From positions 26,271-90,270 of the forward strand of contig JAJZXB010000006.1 of NCBI GenBank assembly GCA_021846395.1: 64,000 nt of DNA. Direction: 5' to 3'. Shown one piece after another: positions 5,881 through 45,655 of this stretch; position 1 is the stretch's first letter; every line of letters begins with the position of its first letter. Source of the DNA: Thermoplasmata archaeon. GTDB taxonomy: Archaea > Thermoplasmatota > Thermoplasmata > Thermoplasmatales > Thermoplasmataceae. The notes beneath the pieces are model-generated. The model did no database searches. It was not told the origin of the DNA and saw only the letters and a list, made by a program, of their open reading frames with translations. The position numbers and the translations under genes were made by a program.

Positions 5881-6099
5881 TTAATAAGATATTACTTCGT
5901 CGATTAAATCTGCATTTGACAGAATCATTCTTCTGCAGCAATATCTTTCCACACCAAGATCGTCCAGTATTTTTGACTTTTCCTTTCCATTTGGTTCATG
6001 GCCGATCTCATTTATTATTTTTCTTGATTCCTCGGCGAATCTAACGTAATCCGAGGCAATAACTCTTCCACAGCTGAAACATCTTATTGGAATTATCAT
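5881..6099 (-). CDS. rpoN: DNA-directed RNA polymerase subunit N (Rpb10 homolog)
   Basis: MIIPIRCFSCGRVI...RYCCRRMIL matches the archaeal RpoN consensus. Start trimmed to the internal Met at 6099, which is preceded by GGTGAT. Confidence 0.85.
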   Translation of the reverse strand: MIIPIRCFSCGRVIASDYVRFAEESRKIINEIGHEPNGKEKSKILDDLGVERYCCRRMILSNADLIDEVISY

Positions 6100-38783: not shown

Positions 38784-39105
38784 AATGGATGATTATTTAT
38801 TCGGATAAAAAATTATAGTTTATTAAAATATTATGAATAATATAAATTTGAACCATAAACATTCATTTTTAGGTTATGGAAAAAAGTAACTTTTACACCT
38901 GTATAATATTATAAATTATTAAAAATTTCAATATACTGTATATTTATTGTAAATATATATACATATATATGAAAAATAATATATATTACTACATATTATT
39001 ATATTATGAACAAATACCTTGCCATAATAACAATAATAGTTATGGCAATGTTTATAATGGTTTCATTTTCAGGGGATATTTATAAAAACGATTTAAAGAA
39101 TATTA

Positions 39106-39921
39106 ATGAAAGGCCTGCATCCAATAATTATAAAAAAAATAGGAAATATAACATACATGCATAATTTCATTATAAAAAATAATGGAACGATATTATCCAA
39201 TAATATAAACAGATCAATAATAAACAATATAAATAACAGTTACAATAGGAATATAAACACAACCAATAATAATTTAACACCCATATCATATAATTATCAA
39301 AAAACAAACAATACAAATTATCTAATTGAAAAATATAATTTAACCTCTAAGAATAATGTATTGTATACAATGGCATTCACAGATAACTTTACCAAATATA
39401 GGGTGGAAATAGGTGATATAATAATAAATAAAGGTAATAAGAATATATCAGAGGTATATGCAAATATAGTGCCTAAGAACTCTTCAAAGATACTATATGG
39501 AAATGAATTCACTATAAATTATAGATCATCCTATAATAATCAGATGAAAGCTTTAATAAATTCCATTTATTTATCATCACTGTATTATATGAATTCAAAC
39601 AATATTACAATGCATAAATTCGGTATAGAAAATAATTACATATCAATGGCAATGAATTCAATGTTGGGTAAAACAAATAATACTGTAAAGAATATGGAGA
39701 TAAATAGTACAAATGCAATGGTAATTGATAACACTTTTTATTGTATTCTTTCTATACTGGCTCTTGCAGGTTTTATTGTTGCACAATTTATTCCGGGTTT
39801 AGATGTTGGAGTTGATGCTACCGTGGCGGCTGTCTATGCAGGTTATTTTCTCACATCATTCCTTGGTGGATTGGCGGTAATAGGGGTCACTCATGCCTGT
39901 TCTGATACACATTGGAGTTAA
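39106..39921 (+). CDS. Asn/Ile-rich protein with Gly-rich hydrophobic C-terminal module (possible frameshifted secreted precursor)
   Basis: 271 aa; the N-terminal ~200 aa are low-complexity and N-rich. The C-terminus CILSILALAGFIVAQFIPGLDVGVDATVAAVYAGYFLTSFLGGLAVIGVTHACSDTHWS is two hydrophobic helices. An upstream frame-shifted signal-peptide ORF exists (see findings). Confidence 0.4.
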   Translation: MKGLHPIIIKKIGNITYMHNFIIKNNGTILSNNINRSIINNINNSYNRNINTTNNNLTPISYNYQKTNNTNYLIEKYNLTSKNNVLYTMAFTDNFTKYRVEIGDIIINKGNKNISEVYANIVPKNSSKILYGNEFTINYRSSYNNQMKALINSIYLSSLYYMNSNNITMHKFGIENNYISMAMNSMLGKTNNTVKNMEINSTNAMVIDNTFYCILSILALAGFIVAQFIPGLDVGVDATVAAVYAGYFLTSFLGGLAVIGVTHACSDTHWS

Positions 39922-39930
39922 GATGAGAAT

Positions 39931-40176
39931 ATGAAAAACGATAAGGAAAAACTAATGTTAAAAAGGTTAAAGGGGTTAAAAATTGCAATAACGGTAATGG
40001 CTATACCCTCAATTATTATAACCATAGTCGCATTGTTAAATTTAGAAGTTGCTTATGAAAATAGAATTGATTTCTTTTATTTATATTTAATATGTTTGCC
40101 CTCGTTATTATTTTATATATATTTATATATACATAATAAAAAAAAACTTAACCATATAAAAAATATATTATGGTAA
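39931..40176 (+). CDS. small two-TM membrane protein (immunity-like position)
   Basis: 81 aa with two hydrophobic segments flanked by K-rich ends; 9 nt after the upstream gene and 4 nt before the next. Confidence 0.35.
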   Translation: MKNDKEKLMLKRLKGLKIAITVMAIPSIIITIVALLNLEVAYENRIDFFYLYLICLPSLLFYIYLYIHNKKKLNHIKNILW

Positions 40177-40180
40177 CCAG

Positions 40181-40564
40181 ATGAAAACTTTAATAAATTC
40201 CCTGTATTTATCATCACTGTATTATATGAATTCAAACAATATTACAATGCATAAATTCGGTATAGAAAATAATTACATATCAATGGCAATGAATTCAATG
40301 CTGGGTAAAACAAATAATACTGTAAAATCCATGAATATAAGTGAAACGAATGCAATGGTGGTAGATTATAGTTGGTGGTGCATTTTACAAATAGTTAGTG
40401 AAGGGTTCGGACTATTTGCTGTGCTTGCTGCCATTAGTTTAGCAATATTTGCTACTAATGGAATGGCATTGTGGGAAATAGCATTGACTTGGGATAGTAT
40501 AAGTGCAGGTATAGCCAGCTTAGGTCTTACTATTTATATAACTGCTGAAACATGTGATTGGTGA
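40181..40564 (+). CDS. orphan paralogous C-terminal module of the 39106 gene
   Basis: Its first ~53 aa are about 90% identical at the DNA level to 39543-39700. It then has a divergent Gly/Ala-rich hydrophobic C-terminus ending ...AETCDW (cf. ...ACSDTHWS). Confidence 0.4.
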   Translation: MKTLINSLYLSSLYYMNSNNITMHKFGIENNYISMAMNSMLGKTNNTVKSMNISETNAMVVDYSWWCILQIVSEGFGLFAVLAAISLAIFATNGMALWEIALTWDSISAGIASLGLTIYITAETCDW

Positions 40565-40808
40565 AATAAGTATGATAAAGAACATTATTAAAAGGAACTA
40601 TATTTTAGTATATCTAATTAAATGATATTAAATAATACAAACTCCGGTTAATTAACCCGTATTATTTATCATATTGAATATATATTTAGGGCTTTTCATC
40701 CCACTTATTTATAAGACATGGCTTTATGAACTTATTCTTGCTTTCATATTCCTGTCAAGAAATGTCCATATTATGGTGAAAAGTTATCTTCAGGCATCAT
40801 AATTTCGG

Positions 40809-41069
40809 CTACTTATGGAAGAACAGAAGAATTTGAAAGTATTCCATAGACTCATTTGCTTCAAGGAACGGGGGAAGTGGAATCAGTTCAGTTATATCCT
40901 CATGATATTGAGCAATTCTCTTCACATAGACGGAGAGTTTTGCTATTACTGTTGAGATATGAGATATTGATCTTGCCATTCTACCGCCATATTTACCACA
41001 GCTAAATTCAATAGAACTTATATGGAAATCGATAAAAATGCGGTCTCTAAGACTTTCGTGGATGGTCAT
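40809..41069 (-). pseudogene. truncated ORF, possible gene/IS remnant
   Basis: 86-aa ORF; the frame stays open upstream without a start codon (FGKIYEKA-MTIH...). No family assigned. Confidence 0.2.
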
Positions 41070-41216
41070 GGCTTTCTCATAGATCTTGCCAAATCATTCT
41101 ACAAGAGGGAAATAAATGAGTGTATAAATCAATAATTATATATGATAATACCATGAATTATAACGTTATGGCTATTCATGGCTATATTTATTTATTGTAA
41201 TGTATTATACTTAACA

Positions 41217-43904
41217 ATGACGGATGAATTCAATTTGGATTTTTTTAAGGATAGAGGTTTCGTAAGAAAACAATGTGTTTCATGCTCATCCTTTTTCTGG
41301 ACAATTGATAACGATAAAAAAACATGTGGTGATCCTGCATGTGAAAGCTATTCGTTTATTAACAATTCACCTGTATACAAAAAATACAATATTGATGAGA
41401 TGAGAGATGAATTTTTAAATTTTTTTATTAACGATGAAAATTTCAAGCATAGATTTGTTGAACCCTATCCTGTTGTTCCAAGATGGAGAGATGATGTTCT
41501 TCTAGTTAATGCTTCAATATATGATTTTCAACCCCAGGTCACATCAGGGCTTGTTCAGCCACCCGGAAACCCATTGACAATGTCTCAGCCAAGTATAAGG
41601 ATGATAGACCTTGACCTTGTTGGAAAAACGGGAAGACATTTAACAACCTTTGAAATGCTGTGCCACGATTCATTCAATTATGAGAATAAATACGTTTACT
41701 GGAATAATGAAACTGTAAGATATTCATATATTTTCCTGACTGAAAAACTGAAAGTCGATGAAAATTTGATAACGTACAAAGAAAAACCATGGTTCGGTGG
41801 TGGAAATGCCGGCAACGCTGTAGAAGTATTTGTACGGGGGCTTGAAGTGGCAACTCTTGTATTTATGGATTTAAAAGAAGATACTGGCGGGGACATAGAA
41901 ATTGATGGCACAAAATACACAAAAATGCCATTGAGAATTGTTGATACAGGATATGGACTTGAAAGGCTGGTTTGGCTATCAAATGGCACCTCAACCATAT
42001 ATGAATCCATTTATAATAACATTATTGACCTGATTTTGGAAGATTCAGATGCAGAAAGAATCGACAGCAAAATAATGGAAGAAATATCAAAAATATCGGC
42101 TTCAGTAGATCCATACAGTGAAAAAAGGGTTATGGATCAATTGAAAATATATATGGATCAAAATTCAATAAAATATGATGATGAGTTCATTAAAAAATTG
42201 AGGCTCATGCGTGATGTTTATTCTCTTGCTGACCACACAAAAACTTTACTTCTAATGTTTTCTGATTATGTAATACCATCAAATGTGAAGGTTGGTTATC
42301 TGGCGAGGACGTTGATAAGAAGATGCTTCAGGTTCATAGAAGAACTTAGCTTCAGGCATGATCTCCAATACATACTGAATGCCCAGTATGAAAATTCAAG
42401 GAAAATTGTAAAAAGGTTTGATGTAAATTTCATTAATGACATATTATCCATTGAAAGGGAAAAGTATGATACTGTAAATAAGTCTGCGTATAATACCGTA
42501 AGGAAATTTATAAAAAATGATCTTATTTCACATGAAAACCTTCTAAAATTATATGAATCGTATGGCATAAATGAGGATATGATTTTTGATTACTATCATG
42601 AAATAACAGGCAAATATTTGGAAATACCGGATAATTTTCATGAGTTGCTCATAAAAAACAGGGAGAAAAAAACTGGCAAAATAAACGAAAAGTGTGATTA
42701 TCCACCCATAAAAACAAGGCCCTTATATTATGACAATGCAGATATTATGGAATTTACTGGAAATGTTTTGTATTCCGGAGACAGAAGAATTATATTAAAC
42801 CAAACGGCCTTTTATCCTGAGGGGGGTGGGCAGCCATATGATCTTGGATATTTTATATATAACGGTAAAAGAGTGAATGTGCTAAATGTTCAGAAATACA
42901 ATGATGCAATTGTTCATTTTCTTGATGGCTATATACCTGAAAATGCCAGAATCAGGGGATATGTTGATTATAACAGAAGAAAGCAGCTTATGATTCATCA
43001 TTCAGCAACACATCTGATCCTTGGAATTATGAGGGAATATTTCGGTGACCATATATGGCAGAGTGGTGTTAAAAAGGATATAAATGATTCTAGGATAGAT
43101 ATTACCCACTATAAAAAAATTTCAAATAATGATATTGAGGAAATAGAAAATAGGTGCTTCAAGTATATTAGAGCTGGAAAAAAAATAACTGTGACAAATG
43201 AAAACTGGAATTTGGCAATAGAGAAATATGGCTTCCGATTGTTTGAAGGAGGCGTTCCATTATCGTCAAAATTAAGGGTTGTTTCCATAGAAGATATAGA
43301 CTCAGAAGGATGTGGTGGCACACATCTTGATAATACCATTGACATTGGCTTTATTAAAATAATCAAGGTGGAAACTCTGCAGGAAGGCATACAGAGAATT
43401 ATATTTTCTGCCGGTCCTGCTGCATTGAGATACGTTCAATCTCTGTACAGTATAATAAGAAACCAGCAGAATTTTATGAAGGTTGATGAGGAAAAAATGG
43501 TTGATTATTCAAGGAACATGCTTGATGAAAATATAAATCTAAAAAAGGAACTGGAGGATAAAACTAGTTCGTATATAGGAAATGTCATTTCACAGTTTGA
43601 GCATTCGGGAATCTTTAAGCTTTATAAATCTTCAATGAATCGGGGAGATCTGAACAAATTAATCAAGGGCTTGTATAAGATAGATGGCAACAAAATTATA
43701 TTGAATACTTCAGGAAATGCTTCAGATATAACTATAATTTCAAAGCAATCTTTGCAAATAGGAGAAAATATAATAGTAGCACTGAAAGAAAGGGGAATAA
43801 GCAAGCCTGAAGGCAAAATTGGCAACGGTATAACTATTTTACATGTTGAAACGCCAATAAGTGAAAAGTTAATAAAGGAGATTTTAGTTGATATAACGTT
43901 ATGA
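41217..43904 (+). CDS. alaS: alanine--tRNA ligase
   Basis: Archaeal AlaRS catalytic core (WFGGGNAGNAVEVF) and editing-domain HxxxH (IHHSATHLI). Start moved to the internal Met (MTDEF...). Confidence 0.9.
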   Translation: MTDEFNLDFFKDRGFVRKQCVSCSSFFWTIDNDKKTCGDPACESYSFINNSPVYKKYNIDEMRDEFLNFFINDENFKHRFVEPYPVVPRWRDDVLLVNASIYDFQPQVTSGLVQPPGNPLTMSQPSIRMIDLDLVGKTGRHLTTFEMLCHDSFNYENKYVYWNNETVRYSYIFLTEKLKVDENLITYKEKPWFGGGNAGNAVEVFVRGLEVATLVFMDLKEDTGGDIEIDGTKYTKMPLRIVDTGYGLERLVWLSNGTSTIYESIYNNIIDLILEDSDAERIDSKIMEEISKISASVDPYSEKRVMDQLKIYMDQNSIKYDDEFIKKLRLMRDVYSLADHTKTLLLMFSDYVIPSNVKVGYLARTLIRRCFRFIEELSFRHDLQYILNAQYENSRKIVKRFDVNFINDILSIEREKYDTVNKSAYNTVRKFIKNDLISHENLLKLYESYGINEDMIFDYYHEITGKYLEIPDNFHELLIKNREKKTGKINEKCDYPPIKTRPLYYDNADIMEFTGNVLYSGDRRIILNQTAFYPEGGGQPYDLGYFIYNGKRVNVLNVQKYNDAIVHFLDGYIPENARIRGYVDYNRRKQLMIHHSATHLILGIMREYFGDHIWQSGVKKDINDSRIDITHYKKISNNDIEEIENRCFKYIRAGKKITVTNENWNLAIEKYGFRLFEGGVPLSSKLRVVSIEDIDSEGCGGTHLDNTIDIGFIKIIKVETLQEGIQRIIFSAGPAALRYVQSLYSIIRNQQNFMKVDEEKMVDYSRNMLDENINLKKELEDKTSSYIGNVISQFEHSGIFKLYKSSMNRGDLNKLIKGLYKIDGNKIILNTSGNASDITIISKQSLQIGENIIVALKERGISKPEGKIGNGITILHVETPISEKLIKEILVDITL

Positions 43905-45655
43905 TTAATTCAGATGAGATTGTAAATATAGGGGAAGAATATTATAAATCCACAAAAATCGAGATTCTTGATGATTCCGTTATATTTCATATAGAAAAAA
44001 CAGGGAACGAAGAAACATTTTCCTTATTTCTGGATAAACTCAATAATATAGGGTATACCGCCTTTACTGATAAATACCCTGATTACCGTATTATCGTTAT
44101 AAAAGAATACAATATGAATAGAAAATATGCACTTAAAAGCTTAATGTTATTTTTAACGGTTATAGCCATGGTGTATACCGGCTATTCATATTACGAATAT
44201 TATTCTTCCAACCTTAATTTGTATCGAGATCTCATAAATGGAACCATTTATTTTGTAGTTCCTCTCCTGTCCATAATGTTTTTCAGAGAATTCGGAAGAT
44301 TCATAGCTTTTAGAAAAAACGGAATAAAATATTCCTTCCCGATTTTTATACCTGCCCCAGGATTGGGAACACTTGGAATTATAACATCATCACATAAACA
44401 ATTCAAAACTGAAAAATCAATGATAACGGCAGGCTCATATTCAATTATATTTGGATTTTTATTATCCATTTTTATGATTATTTTTGGTTCATTGGTTGAA
44501 CCCATATATCTCACACATGCAACAACCACCAATACATCAATTTATACCTTGAAATTCCCACTTATTTTTATCATGCTGATAAACCACATAATTCCGGTTA
44601 ATGTAATGCCTCCACCAATTGAAATGGCAGGATATATTGGCCTGATCATAACATCCATAAATGCTTTGCCCCTTGGCTTTATGGATGGGGGACTTATTTT
44701 CTCTGCACTGGCAGGTAAAAAATTCTTTCTTTTTTCATATGCCTCTCTTTTAATACTGGTTGCAGCAAGTTTCATATTCCCTCTCTTTATAATACTTATA
44801 ATCGTTGCCCTTCTTCTGGGTATAAAGGGGCCATTGCCTTTGAATAACTTTGTACATCCTAGTAAGAAGATTATTTCTCTGGCCATTGTTGTTATCTTAA
44901 TTGCAATAGCCGGATTTGTGCCGTTGCCATTTGAGCATAATTATCCCGGAAATATTTCTGTATCAATGCCGAAGTATTTCATGGTAAATAGTGATGACCC
45001 TGGAAATACAACATTCAATGTTACTGTAACTAATCATGGAAGTGCTCCCATCACTCCTGTTTTTTCCATTTCAAATGTGACATTTAAAACAGTTTCTGAC
45101 GGCGCTTTAAATATAGCACCGGGCCATTCGGCAGTTTATGAGATGAAACTTTTAACTTACAAATTTAACTATACTGGAGCAAAAAATTACACATTCAATG
45201 TTTTTGCCGGACCATCGCAATATAAACAGATAATTGATATTTATTATGTGCATGCGGGTACAGGACTTGGATTTAACAATGTAACTAGCCCGATAAAAAG
45301 CAGCAACAACACCAGTAGCTCAAACAATATAACGCCAACAAACAATGGGAACCCACTCATCATAAATGCAAAGGTAAACCAGGTCGTGAGTTTCAATATT
45401 ACAAACAGCATGAACACCAACATGACTTTTAAACTTTTATCACTGCCACTGTCTGGCCGTATGAATACATACATGTATTACAACAGTCGTATGGTCAATA
45501 TAACTGGTGAACATCACATTCTGGGTAAAACAATAAAACTGAAACCCGACCAGTCGGTCAATATAAGTTTAATGTCCAAAACGCCAGGTCAGTGGATTAT
45601 ATTGATTTACAGCCAAAATTTGGCGGGATTTGTGGAAATCAATGTAGACAAATGA
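43901..45655 (+). CDS. M50/site-2-protease-like polytopic membrane protein with degenerate active site and N/T-rich C-terminal domain
   Basis: FREFGRFIAFRKNG aligns to the M50 HExxH helix with both His replaced by Arg; the downstream LDG-type motif (FMDGGLIF) is retained. The C-terminal ~250 aa carry many N-x-T/S sequons. Confidence 0.45.
   Translation: MINSDEIVNIGEEYYKSTKIEILDDSVIFHIEKTGNEETFSLFLDKLNNIGYTAFTDKYPDYRIIVIKEYNMNRKYALKSLMLFLTVIAMVYTGYSYYEYYSSNLNLYRDLINGTIYFVVPLLSIMFFREFGRFIAFRKNGIKYSFPIFIPAPGLGTLGIITSSHKQFKTEKSMITAGSYSIIFGFLLSIFMIIFGSLVEPIYLTHATTTNTSIYTLKFPLIFIMLINHIIPVNVMPPPIEMAGYIGLIITSINALPLGFMDGGLIFSALAGKKFFLFSYASLLILVAASFIFPLFIILIIVALLLGIKGPLPLNNFVHPSKKIISLAIVVILIAIAGFVPLPFEHNYPGNISVSMPKYFMVNSDDPGNTTFNVTVTNHGSAPITPVFSISNVTFKTVSDGALNIAPGHSAVYEMKLLTYKFNYTGAKNYTFNVFAGPSQYKQIIDIYYVHAGTGLGFNNVTSPIKSSNNTSSSNNITPTNNGNPLIINAKVNQVVSFNITNSMNTNMTFKLLSLPLSGRMNTYMYYNSRMVNITGEHHILGKTIKLKPDQSVNISLMSKTPGQWIILIYSQNLAGFVEINVDK

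What the first reader, a model, noticed from the sequence alone, without database searches (positions are those of the whole stretch)
39006..40564. Polymorphic-toxin / archaeocin-like cassette: N-rich precursor, small 2-TM protein, orphan paralogous C-terminal module
There are three tightly packed plus-strand ORFs in a stretch far more AT-rich than the flanking SBDS/exosome and alaS genes. The first gene (39106-39921) has an N/I/K/Y-rich low-complexity body and ends in a Gly/Ala-rich, two-helix hydrophobic module with two Cys and a C-x-D-(T-H)-W tail. An 81-aa two-TM protein follows immediately (39931-40176). The third ORF (40181-40564) repeats about 160 nt of the first gene at about 90% identity (39543-39700 versus 40183-40340), giving ...YLSSLYYMNSNNITMHKFGIENNYISMAMNSMLGKTNNTVK.... 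It then carries a different hydrophobic Gly-rich C-terminus with the same Cys spacing and ...C-D-W end. A full gene, a small membrane protein, and an orphan module sharing a pre-toxin homology block with a divergent tip is the layout of polymorphic toxin/immunity loci and of class II bacteriocin clusters. The C-terminal modules resemble membrane-active peptides more than enzymes. Nothing like this is described for Thermoplasmatales as far as I know.
Basis: partly seen in the sequence, partly recalled or inferred. Interest (0 to 1): 0.75.

Follow-up and report, generated by a model that had tools for sequence, protein, structure and literature searches.

The report
Archaeal swappable membrane-toxin and immunity cassette
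A wall-less acid-loving archaeon (Ferroplasma group) carries a surface-protein gene whose greasy C-terminal tip, with a small membrane-protein gene next to it, is swapped between strains like bacterial polymorphic toxin/immunity cassettes, an arrangement that is little documented in archaea.

Summary
ORFs 39106-39921, 39931-40176 and 40181-40564 exist. A roughly 190-nt block is repeated at 90-94% identity, and the sequence after it is unrelated (33%).

Comparative data support the polymorphic-toxin layout.
- The family is small and has no Pfam, NCBIfam or PDB match. It is mostly Ferroplasmaceae, with distant relatives in other archaea.
- It has a conserved body ending at an invariant Asp, then a 45-75 aa hypervariable two-helix tip. 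There are 75 distinct tips in 38 classes.
- Nearly every tip is followed by a 2- or 4-TM ORF that co-varies with it (Mantel r=0.71, 0/5000).
- Arrays hold up to five orphan modules.
- A second haplotype of this same locus is identical for 4,972 nt but has a replaced tip-plus-ORF2 cassette. The junction lies inside the orphan's homology block.

This tract is polymorphic between related alleles, yet the body stays under purifying selection (dN/dS about 0.1). The orphan's own partner gene appears decayed.

Toxicity and immunity are inferred, not shown. It is not a class II bacteriocin cluster.

The parts
38871..39005 (+). Upstream non-coding region that travels with the cassette (probable promoter region)
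   Evidence: It is 84-88% identical to the upstream regions of L003, L004 and L008, which lie in unrelated genomic neighbourhoods. No promoter was tested.
39006..39137 (+). N-terminal signal peptide or membrane anchor plus linker of the main protein (MNKYLAIITIIVMAMFIMVSFSGDIYKNDLKNINERPASNNYKK). It lies in a different frame from the body. The ORF as it stands runs to 39164.
   Evidence: In-frame homologues read ...NNY(T/V)KIGNITFMHNF (P0001/L043, L002, L007, L010-L019).
39132..39139 (+). A8 homopolymer that carries one extra A relative to in-frame alleles. A +1 shift or loss of one A is needed to join the signal peptide to the body.
   Evidence: Tract length is A5 in the in-frame alleles L043, L007 and L002. 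It is A6 in the shifted alleles L001, L003, L004 and L008, and A8 in the window. In-frame and shifted alleles are intermixed on the body tree.
39139..39543 (+). Conserved, N-x-S/T-rich extracytoplasmic body domain (a beta-sheet). The annotated ORF start at 39106 is probably not the native start.
   Evidence: AF2 with 33 sequences gives pLDDT 80-97 for residues 56-210. dN/dS is about 0.10-0.13. There are 14 sequons. Distant relatives carry PKD domains N-terminal of this domain.
39544..39729 (+). Pre-tip homology block 1 (two helices and a strand), ending at the invariant Asp codon 39727-39729. It is the recombination substrate.
   Evidence: An HMM of this block finds 49 copies in 25 sources. 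The Asp is invariant within the Ferroplasmaceae set and is kept in at least 90% of sequences once distant relatives are added. Identity to other loci stops here.
39730..39921 (+). Tip 1: a 63-aa hypervariable hydrophobic two-helix module with Cys at tip position 5 and Cys 7 residues from the C-terminus (...HACSDTHWS)
   Evidence: It is 85% identical to the orphan tip at L003 7222-7413. It is 74.5% (nt) and about 60% (aa) identical to the allele at the same locus in L037.
39931..40176 (+). ORF2: an 81-aa two-TM protein with Lys/Arg-rich termini, the putative cognate immunity or partner protein for tip 1
   Evidence: It is 67% identical to the 87-aa ORF that follows the same tip type in L003, and 41% identical to the one after the related L007 tip. 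It co-varies with the tips. It is 80% identical in L037.
40174..40366 (+). Homology block 2 (the 5' part of orphan ORF3, whose ORF starts at 40181). It holds the right-hand junction of the cassette replacement seen between haplotypes.
   Evidence: It is 90-94% identical to block 1. The last mismatch between the window and L037/L038 is at 40204, followed by 0 mismatches to 45176.
40367..40564 (+). Tip 2 of the orphan module: 65 aa, YSWWC...ETCDW. It is a tip type of its own, with 37.5% identity to the nearest relative.
40572..40802 (+). Possible decayed partner gene of tip 2. One frame reads as a roughly 77-aa hydrophobic protein interrupted by three stop codons.
   Evidence: The sequence is identical in five other contigs of the same population. 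No homologue was found, so this is a weak inference.

Best explanation
This is one locus of an archaeal polymorphic toxin/immunity-type system.

Architecture. The main gene encodes a Sec-targeted protein that is either secreted or anchored by its N-terminus. It has a conserved, probably glycosylated extracellular body. The body ends in a roughly 62-aa helical homology block and an invariant Asp. A 45-75 aa hypervariable tip follows. The tip consists of two very hydrophobic, Gly/Ala/Ser-rich helices with almost no Lys or Arg. A Cys at each end could staple the hairpin on the outer, oxidising side of the membrane.

Inferred mechanism. The hairpin is delivered from outside into the bare membrane of neighbouring wall-less Ferroplasma cells. 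There it oligomerises or perturbs the bilayer and collapses the very large pH gradient these acidophiles depend on. The small 2- or 4-TM protein encoded immediately downstream sits in the producer's membrane with both ends in the cytoplasm. It neutralises only its cognate hairpin by helix-helix binding.

Shown here. New tip-plus-partner cassettes are stored downstream as promoterless orphans. They are exchanged with the expressed gene by homologous recombination in the block.

State of the window copy. Tip 1 and ORF2 form an intact pair. Tip 2 is an orphan whose partner gene has probably decayed. Export of the main protein is currently uncoupled by a +1 A in an A-tract, so the gene is either off or needs slippage to be expressed.
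For: Shown.
- The body is conserved and the tip is hypervariable, with a sharp boundary at the invariant Asp. L001 is 96.5% identical to the window up to 39689 and unrelated afterwards.
- There are 75 distinct tips in 38 classes.
- Nearly every complete tip is followed, within -40 to +25 nt, by a 65-95 aa 2-TM or a 134-157 aa 4-TM ORF.
- Tip identity predicts downstream-ORF identity: Mantel r=0.71, 0 of 5000 permutations.
- The same tip-plus-partner pair is the expressed end in the window and an orphan in L003.
- Arrays hold 1-5 orphans (L003, L015, L039).
- There are up to five loci per genome, each in a different neighbourhood.
- L037/L038 equal the window for 4,972 nt (40205-45176) but have 109 mismatches in 39590-40204. 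A third haplotype, L039, switches arrays about 100 nt into the block.
- dN/dS is 0.58 in the tip, 0.21 in ORF2 and 0.16 in the block.
- L039 holds a lone partner gene with no tip (2067-2309). L018 and L015 hold decayed orphans with intact partner genes.
- The toxin-then-TM-gene pair is kept in distant relatives from other archaea (L027, L029).
- An extracytoplasmic location is supported by the N-terminal hydrophobic leader and by PKD domains in relative P0079.
- Tip chemistry: Gly 12.4%, Lys+Arg 0.6%, exactly two Cys in 34 of 40 tips, first Cys at tip position 5 in 35 of 40, and a C-terminal Trp in 22 of 40. AF2 predicts two helices in the tip.

Inferred from established knowledge.
- Membrane-depolarising polymorphic toxins with small membrane immunity proteins are known in bacteria: CDI ionophores (PMC11630599) and the EsxX and TelE glycine-zipper toxins (PMC12744356, PMC10434224).
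Against: - No toxicity, secretion or protection has been measured for any member.
- There is no sequence or fold similarity to any known toxin or immunity family.
- The tip is modelled with low confidence (pLDDT 30-42).
- Tip/partner co-variation is also what simple physical linkage would give.
- In the window and in five related loci the signal peptide is out of frame. L006 has an independent frameshift. In these genomes the protein may therefore not be exported at all.
- The window orphan has no intact partner gene. This is awkward if orphans are ever expressed.
- GxxxG motifs are not enriched. Only [GAS]xxx[GAS] is modestly enriched: 6.5 per tip against 5.7 +/- 0.26 in shuffles.
- Tip dN/dS is below 1.
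Confidence: 0.6

Rival explanations
1. It is a non-lethal self/non-self recognition (allorecognition) system. The variable membrane hairpin of one cell meets the variable small TM protein of another. A match or mismatch controls adhesion, membrane fusion or DNA exchange between wall-less cells, rather than killing. This would be analogous to IdsD/IdsE in Proteus (my own knowledge).
For: The same evidence for polymorphism, cognate pairing and cassette exchange applies. Both partners are membrane proteins. The hosts lack a cell wall, so membranes can touch directly (established for Ferroplasma). There is no enzymatic toxin domain.
Against: Orphan arrays and lone retained partner genes (L039 2067-2309) are typical of toxin/immunity stockpiling. 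The tip chemistry resembles membrane-active peptides. No signalling or adhesion domains are linked to it.
Confidence: 0.15
2. It is a diffusible archaeocin. The tip is cleaved from the precursor at or after the invariant Asp and released as a roughly 6-7 kDa disulfide-stapled hydrophobic peptide. The body would act only as a leader or chaperone, as in the processing of halocins C8 and S8 from larger precursors (my own knowledge). ORF2 is the immunity protein. This differs from the best explanation only in the delivery mode.
Against: No protease or exporter is linked. There is no homology to halocins or class II bacteriocins. A peptide with no charge would be poorly soluble. Cleavage is pure conjecture. 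The computed hydrophobic moments of the body helices are low (0.09-0.17).
Confidence: 0.15
3. In this genome the locus is a decaying relic. The frameshift has inactivated the main gene and the orphan's partner gene is already dead. What remains useful, if anything, is ORF2, as protection against neighbours that still make tip 1.
For: A +1 A separates the signal peptide from the body. L003 has also lost the hydrophobic leader by deletion, and L007 has lost it through a 5' replacement. There are three stops in 40572-40802. Many orphans elsewhere are truncated.
Against: The body ORF remains open, with dN/dS of 0.10-0.13 at dS of 0.55-0.77 between frameshifted copies. In-frame and shifted alleles that are otherwise about 97% identical coexist (L043 versus L004) and intermix on the tree. 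This suggests switching or recent polymorphism rather than old decay. Tip 1 and ORF2 are intact.
Confidence: 0.25
4. It is an ordinary variable surface glycoprotein with a two-helix membrane anchor and a small assembly partner. Variation would be driven by virus or predator evasion.
For: The protein has an N-terminal leader, a sequon-rich body and C-terminal hydrophobic helices.
Against: The exposed body is the conserved part and the membrane-embedded tip is the hypervariable part. This is the opposite of what evasion predicts. An anchor needs no cognate co-varying partner and no silent orphan cassettes. There is no PGF-CTERM or other sorting-signal match.
Confidence: 0.05

Closest known systems
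CDI ionophore toxins: CdiA-CT with small membrane CdiI, including orphan cdiA-CT/cdiI modules (PMC11630599, PMC3150448)
   Same: A large surface protein carries a polymorphic C-terminal membrane-inserting helical toxin after a sharp demarcation motif. A small integral-membrane immunity protein is encoded immediately downstream and is specific for its cognate toxin. Orphan CT/immunity pairs keep a stretch of upstream homology that is used for recombination.
   Different: There is no sequence homology. There are no FHA repeats, VENN motif or CdiB two-partner secretion, only a Sec-type leader. The tip is a two-helix hairpin rather than a five-helix bundle with an entry domain. The host is an archaeon with no outer membrane or wall to cross. 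Activity is untested.
T7SS LXG toxins with a C-terminal glycine-zipper membrane-depolarising domain: EsxX, TelE, TspA (PMC12744356, PMC10434224)
   Same: They have short, hydrophobic, small-residue-rich C-terminal toxin modules, membrane-protein immunity genes downstream, and polymorphic loci.
   Different: There is no LXG domain and no T7SS. GxxxG itself is not enriched here. The tips are flanked by a conserved Cys pair.
Rhs/YD-repeat and other classical polymorphic toxin systems (Zhang et al. 2012, PMC3482391)
   Same: The evolutionary logic is the same: a conserved delivery part, a variable tip, an adjacent immunity gene, silent cassettes, and displacement by recombination.
   Different: The classical systems found in archaea are few and were judged to be bacterial imports carrying enzymatic toxins (PMC3482391). 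This family has no bacterial homologues in 1.84 billion representatives, and its tips are non-enzymatic.
Halocins C8 and S8: archaeocins processed from larger precursors (my own knowledge; bioRxiv 10.64898/2026.07.27.741052 for distribution)
   Same: An archaeal hydrophobic, Cys-containing peptide sits at or near the C-terminal part of a roughly 300-aa secreted precursor.
   Different: There is no homology. In halocin C8 the immunity protein is part of the same precursor, the leader is a Tat signal and there are ten Cys. No orphan arrays or cassette swapping are known for halocins.
VARTIG modules of Thermococcales (PMC8416519)
   Same: It is an archaeal, PTS-like hypervariable module in a surface protein, with a variable C-terminal part generated by recombination and variable downstream genes. 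Its function is unproven.
   Different: The variable part there is an Ig domain, not a membrane hairpin. The protein families and the lineage are different.

Membership tests
Polymorphic toxin systems (generic definition) | Conserved N-terminal or delivery region joined to a hypervariable C-terminal module at a sharp boundary | tested here: met
   Alignments A1, A2 and A4 show the invariant Asp followed by unrelated tips. blastn break-points fall at 39689-39730.
Polymorphic toxin systems (generic definition) | Cognate partner (immunity) gene immediately downstream that co-varies with the C-terminal module | tested here: met
   A TM ORF follows nearly every tip. Mantel r=0.71, 0 of 5000 permutations. 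The immunity function itself was not tested.
Polymorphic toxin systems (generic definition) | Downstream orphan module/immunity cassettes that keep a homology stretch | tested here: met
   The window ORF3, and arrays of up to five orphans in L003, L015 and L039.
Polymorphic toxin systems (generic definition) | Exchange of modules by recombination between strains | tested here: met
   The window and L037/L038 have 0 mismatches over 40205-45176 and 109 mismatches over 39590-40204. L037 and L039 switch arrays inside the block.
Polymorphic toxin systems (generic definition) | The C-terminal module is toxic to non-immune cells and the partner protects | not testable with these tools
   This needs expression or competition experiments.
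Polymorphic toxin systems (generic definition) | An export route for the toxin | tested here: inconclusive
   In-frame relatives have a Sec-like hydrophobic leader. In the window it is out of frame through the A8 run. No signal-peptide predictor was available.
CDI (CdiB/CdiA/CdiI) | CdiA with haemagglutinin/FHA repeats, a VENN (or equivalent) motif and a CdiB transporter | tested here: not met
   There is no Pfam or NCBIfam hit at E<=1. No such genes lie in the neighbourhood.
Class II bacteriocin clusters | A small prepeptide with a double-glycine or Sec leader, and a dedicated ABC transporter with C39 peptidase plus an accessory protein | tested here: not met
   The precursor is about 300 aa. 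No bacteriocin, ABC or C39 family is hit. The neighbours are SBDS, exosome, alaS and an M50-like gene.
Halocin C8 / other halocin families | Sequence homology to the halocin precursor and a Tat leader | tested here: not met
   No family hit. The leader lacks a twin-arginine motif (sequence).
LXG/T7SS glycine-zipper toxins | An N-terminal LXG domain and a glycine-zipper (GxxxG repeat) toxin | tested here: not met
   There is no LXG hit. GxxxG occurs 0.88 times per tip against 0.90 in shuffles.
Archaeosortase-type C-terminal sorting signals (PGF-CTERM and relatives) | A short, conserved tripartite C-terminal signal recognised by NCBIfam models | tested here: not met
   No NCBIfam hit at E<=1. 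The tips have two helices, are 45-75 aa long and are hypervariable.

The most novel reading that the evidence does not exclude
This is an archaea-native conflict or allorecognition system adapted to wall-less extreme acidophiles. It has three linked features.
- A completely uncharged, disulfide-stapled helical hairpin inserts from the pH ~1 outside into a neighbour's naked membrane. Its few Asp and Glu residues would be protonated outside and trapped once they are deprotonated inside.
- Its expression is gated by a slippery A-tract placed exactly between the signal peptide and the body. This tract acts as a reversible on/off switch (phase variation) or a recoding site.
- The body fold is new.
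If the outcome of a mismatch is control of cell fusion or gene exchange rather than killing, this would be a molecular basis for the species-boundary recombination patterns long noted in Ferroplasma populations (my own knowledge).
Probability: 0.15. Interest if true: 0.9.

Novelty: new variant of a known kind. Interest (0 to 1): 0.72.

Why it matters
Polymorphic toxin systems are considered rare in archaea and, where present, mostly borrowed from bacteria (PMC3482391). As of 2021 none had been characterised experimentally in archaea (PMC8416519).

This family has no bacterial homologues. It has its own body fold and non-enzymatic membrane tips. It shows population-level cassette replacement caught in the act at a single chromosomal site.

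It offers a compact, testable model of about 1.5 kb for how wall-less acidophilic archaea compete with or recognise each other. It also gives a library of about 40 natural hairpin/partner specificity classes for studying helix-helix recognition in tetraether membranes.

The recurrent frameshift between leader and body, with the body still under selection, is a separate puzzle. The candidates are phase variation, recoding, or a function that does not need the leader.

Tried and rejected
- Pfam and NCBIfam scans of the three ORFs gave nothing significant. The best hits were Clarin-2 at E=0.022 and AA_permease at E=0.009, both far below their cut-offs.
- A profile search against PDB sequences gave nothing.
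- The viral contig scan found no relatives.
- I looked for an 'empty site' between SBDS and alaS by scanning metagenomes with SBDS. The only usable hit (L025, 77% identical) has different synteny, so it gave no information.
- The putative decayed partner gene (40572-40802) has no detectable homologue among 60 or so partner ORFs, so it stays a weak inference.
- Makarova et al. 2019 (mBio 10:e00715-19, PMC6509191) is the main survey of archaeal polymorphic toxins, and it is not held. I therefore could not check whether this family is listed there. Full-text searches combining Ferroplasma or Thermoplasmatales with toxin, immunity or archaeocin terms found no description.
- GxxxG enrichment was tested and is absent, so I do not call the tips glycine zippers.
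- The hydrophobic moment of the body helices is low. This does not support the idea that they shield the tip.
Full report
**What is in the window**

Three plus-strand ORFs sit between SBDS/exosome genes (minus strand; SBDS, Rrp4, Rrp41) and alaS. They are 39106-39921 (271 aa), 39931-40176 (81 aa) and 40181-40564 (127 aa). GC falls to 0.19-0.26 across 38800-39600, against 0.32-0.43 in the flanks.

The repeat is real. The 186-nt block 39544-39729 recurs at 40181-40366, an offset of 637 nt, with 90.3% identity. The sequence after the block is 33% identical, which is random.

ORF 39006-39164 encodes MNKYLAIITIIVMAMFIMVSFSGD..., a Sec-type leader or N-terminal anchor, in another frame. Skipping one base in the A8 run at 39132-39139 joins it to the body and gives a 304-aa protein. 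In-frame homologues read exactly across this junction as ...NNY(T/V)KIGNITFMHNF.

**The family**

The word-indexed protein search found only 15 relatives, one of them named 'hypothetical protein [Ferroplasma sp.]'. An exhaustive profile search of 1.84 billion representatives found 66 clusters, most of them orphan-sized.

A scan of species-representative genomes found 18 loci in six genomes: five 'Thermoplasmata archaeon' MAGs and Acidiplasma aeolicum. There are up to five loci per genome. Each locus lies in a different neighbourhood, for example the his operon, ribosomal protein S7, the proteasome alpha subunit, AbiEii, or peptidase M13.

Distant full-length relatives come from GC-richer archaea. 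One is labelled Nitrososphaerales, and one carries PKD domains ahead of the conserved body. Nothing matches Pfam, NCBIfam or PDB sequences, and there are no viral relatives.

**Anatomy**

Alignments show a conserved body, then a helical block that ends at an Asp, then unrelated tips. The Asp is D208 of the 271-aa ORF, codon 39727-39729. It is invariant within the Ferroplasmaceae sequences and is kept in at least 90% of sequences when the distant relatives are included.

With a 33-sequence alignment AlphaFold2 models residues 56-210 at pLDDT 80-97. The model has a beta-sheet (61-137), two long helices (143-162 and 167-189) and a last strand (201-207). The tip forms two helices at low confidence. 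Fold searches gave no credible relative.

Forty distinct tips from the loci are 45-75 aa long. They contain 12.4% Gly and 0.6% Lys+Arg. Exactly two Cys occur in 34 of 40 tips. The first Cys is at tip position 5 in 35 of 40, and the last lies within 1-14 residues of the C-terminus. The final residue is Trp in 22 of 40. In a helical hairpin the two Cys would lie side by side, on the face where both ends emerge. Including protein hits, there are 75 distinct tips in 38 classes at 45% identity or more.

**Cognate partners and orphans**

An HMM of the block finds 49 copies in 25 sources. Nearly every complete tip is followed, from 40 nt of overlap to 25 nt downstream, by a 65-95 aa two-TM ORF or a 134-157 aa four-TM ORF with Lys/Arg-rich ends.

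Tip similarity predicts similarity of the following ORF: Mantel r=0.71, with 0 of 5000 permutations reaching it. Of 20 tip pairs at 45% identity or more, 14 have partners at 35% or more. Only 3 of 646 other pairs do.

The window's tip 1 plus ORF2 recurs as an orphan pair in L003. There the tip is 85% identical and the partner 67% identical. A more distant tip in L007 (40%) has a correspondingly more distant partner (41%).

Arrays contain up to five orphans (L015; also L003/L009 and L039). Some arrays hold decayed orphans with intact partner genes (L018, L015). One holds a lone partner gene with no tip (L039 2067-2309). The gene pair is also kept in the distant relatives: P0076 with a 149-aa four-TM ORF, and P0072 with a 77-aa two-TM ORF.

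**Cassette exchange caught at this locus**

ORF2 has an identical copy in several metagenome contigs of the same clonal population. It also has an 80%-identical variant, P0095.

P0095 lies at the same chromosomal site in L037 and L038 (GCA_027448205.1). From 40205 to 45176, a stretch of 4,972 nt covering tip 2, the spacer, alaS and the next gene, there is not one mismatch to the window. From 39590 to 40204 there are 109 mismatches. Block 1 is 88.6% identical, tip 1 is 74.5% (about 60% at the protein level) and ORF2 is 84%. The right-hand junction therefore lies in the first 25 nt of the orphan's homology block.

A third haplotype (L039/L040) carries the same variant tip and partner. About 100 nt into the block it switches to a different, longer array. 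Between the window and L037, dN/dS is 0.58 in the tip, 0.21 in ORF2 and 0.16 in the block.

**The frameshift**

In-frame alleles have A5 at the site (L043, L007, L002, L013, L017, L018). L001, L003/L009, L004 and L008 have A6, and the window has A8. Each shifted allele carries one extra A.

L043 and L004 are otherwise about 97% identical in this region, yet they differ in frame state. On a tree of the body region, in-frame L007 nests among the shifted alleles. L006 has an independent 1-nt deletion 10 nt further on.

Frameshifted copies have diverged to dS 0.55-0.77, but their bodies remain open with dN/dS 0.10-0.13, the same as in-frame copies.

So uncoupling the leader from the body is recurrent and does not release the body from selection. 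Candidate explanations are reversible switching at the A-tract, transcriptional or ribosomal slippage, a function for the leaderless form starting at the conserved Met (MHNF), or homogenisation by gene conversion. I cannot decide between these.

**The orphan**

Tip 2 is a class of its own, with 37.5% identity to the nearest tip. It is the only complete tip without an intact following TM ORF. The stretch 40572-40802 reads in one frame as a roughly 77-aa hydrophobic protein with three stops. It has no detectable homologue, so its reading as a decayed partner gene is only suggestive.

**Mechanism**

Shown here:
- the conserved/variable architecture;
- cognate linkage of tip and partner;
- orphan storage;
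- recombinational replacement;
- extracytoplasmic hallmarks.

Inferred:
- The hairpin is a membrane-active toxin delivered to neighbours. Ferroplasma is wall-less, so no envelope needs to be crossed.
- The small TM protein neutralises the cognate hairpin within the bilayer. This is by analogy with CDI ionophore toxins and their membrane CdiI proteins (PMC11630599) and with the membrane-depolarising EsxX and TelE toxins (PMC12744356, PMC10434224).

Speculative:
- The near-absence of basic residues, with acidic residues around the hairpin turn, may favour insertion from the acid side.
- The invariant Asp may mark a processing site.

The main rivals are non-lethal allorecognition, a cleaved diffusible archaeocin, and, for this particular copy, a decaying relic. 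It is not a class II bacteriocin cluster, a halocin, a CDI or LXG member, or a sorting signal (see the membership table).

**Novelty and limits**

Zhang et al. 2012 found classical polymorphic toxins to be rare in archaea and probably bacterial in origin. A 2021 paper states that predicted archaeal systems had not been experimentally characterised. I found no description of this family. However, the key survey, Makarova et al. 2019, is not held, so prior cataloguing cannot be excluded. I rate it a new variant of a known kind, with high interest for archaeal social biology.

Noticed in passing
window 39132-39139 (A8); compare L043 ~154-158, L004, L008, L001, L007: A homopolymer between the leader and the body is A5 in in-frame alleles and A6 or A8 in shifted alleles. 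On and off states intermix on the tree, and the body stays under purifying selection (dN/dS about 0.1). This could be phase variation or recoding in an archaeon.
   Followed up: partly
L006 ~5990-6005: There is an independent 1-nt deletion, again between the leader and the conserved Met (MNNF) of the body, in a different lineage of the family.
   Followed up: partly
window 40572-40802: One frame reads as a roughly 77-aa hydrophobic protein with three in-frame stops, directly after the orphan. It may be a dead partner gene. The sequence is identical in five other contigs of the same population.
   Followed up: partly
L039 2067-2309: An 80-aa partner-type gene (a relative of the L007 partner) sits in an array without any preceding tip. 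It looks like a retained 'immunity-only' gene.
   Followed up: no
L002 7745-8921 and L006 1263-5255: AbiEii-family toxin-antitoxin genes lie next to two of the loci. This suggests the cassettes can sit in defence or variable islands.
   Followed up: no
L027 7117-7560 (minus strand): A VKOR-family gene (extracytoplasmic disulfide formation) lies about 1.2 kb from the distant family member P0076 in a Nitrososphaerales MAG. This is of interest given the conserved Cys pair, but it may be coincidence.
   Followed up: no
window 43901-45655: A 584-aa protein has a weak Peptidase_M50 match (below the Pfam cut-off) and a long Asn/Ser/Thr-rich C-terminal domain. Its start overlaps the alaS stop by 4 nt.
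   Followed up: no
window 40809-41069 (minus strand): An 86-aa ORF with no family match lies between the cassette and alaS. It is also called as a gene in the related contigs L031, L033 and L034.
   Followed up: no
L003 5848-5911 and L007 5836-6045: The 5' ends of two main genes have lost the hydrophobic leader. L003 lost it by deletion. In L007 the body is fused in frame to the 3' remnant of an upstream oxoprolinase-like gene.
   Followed up: no
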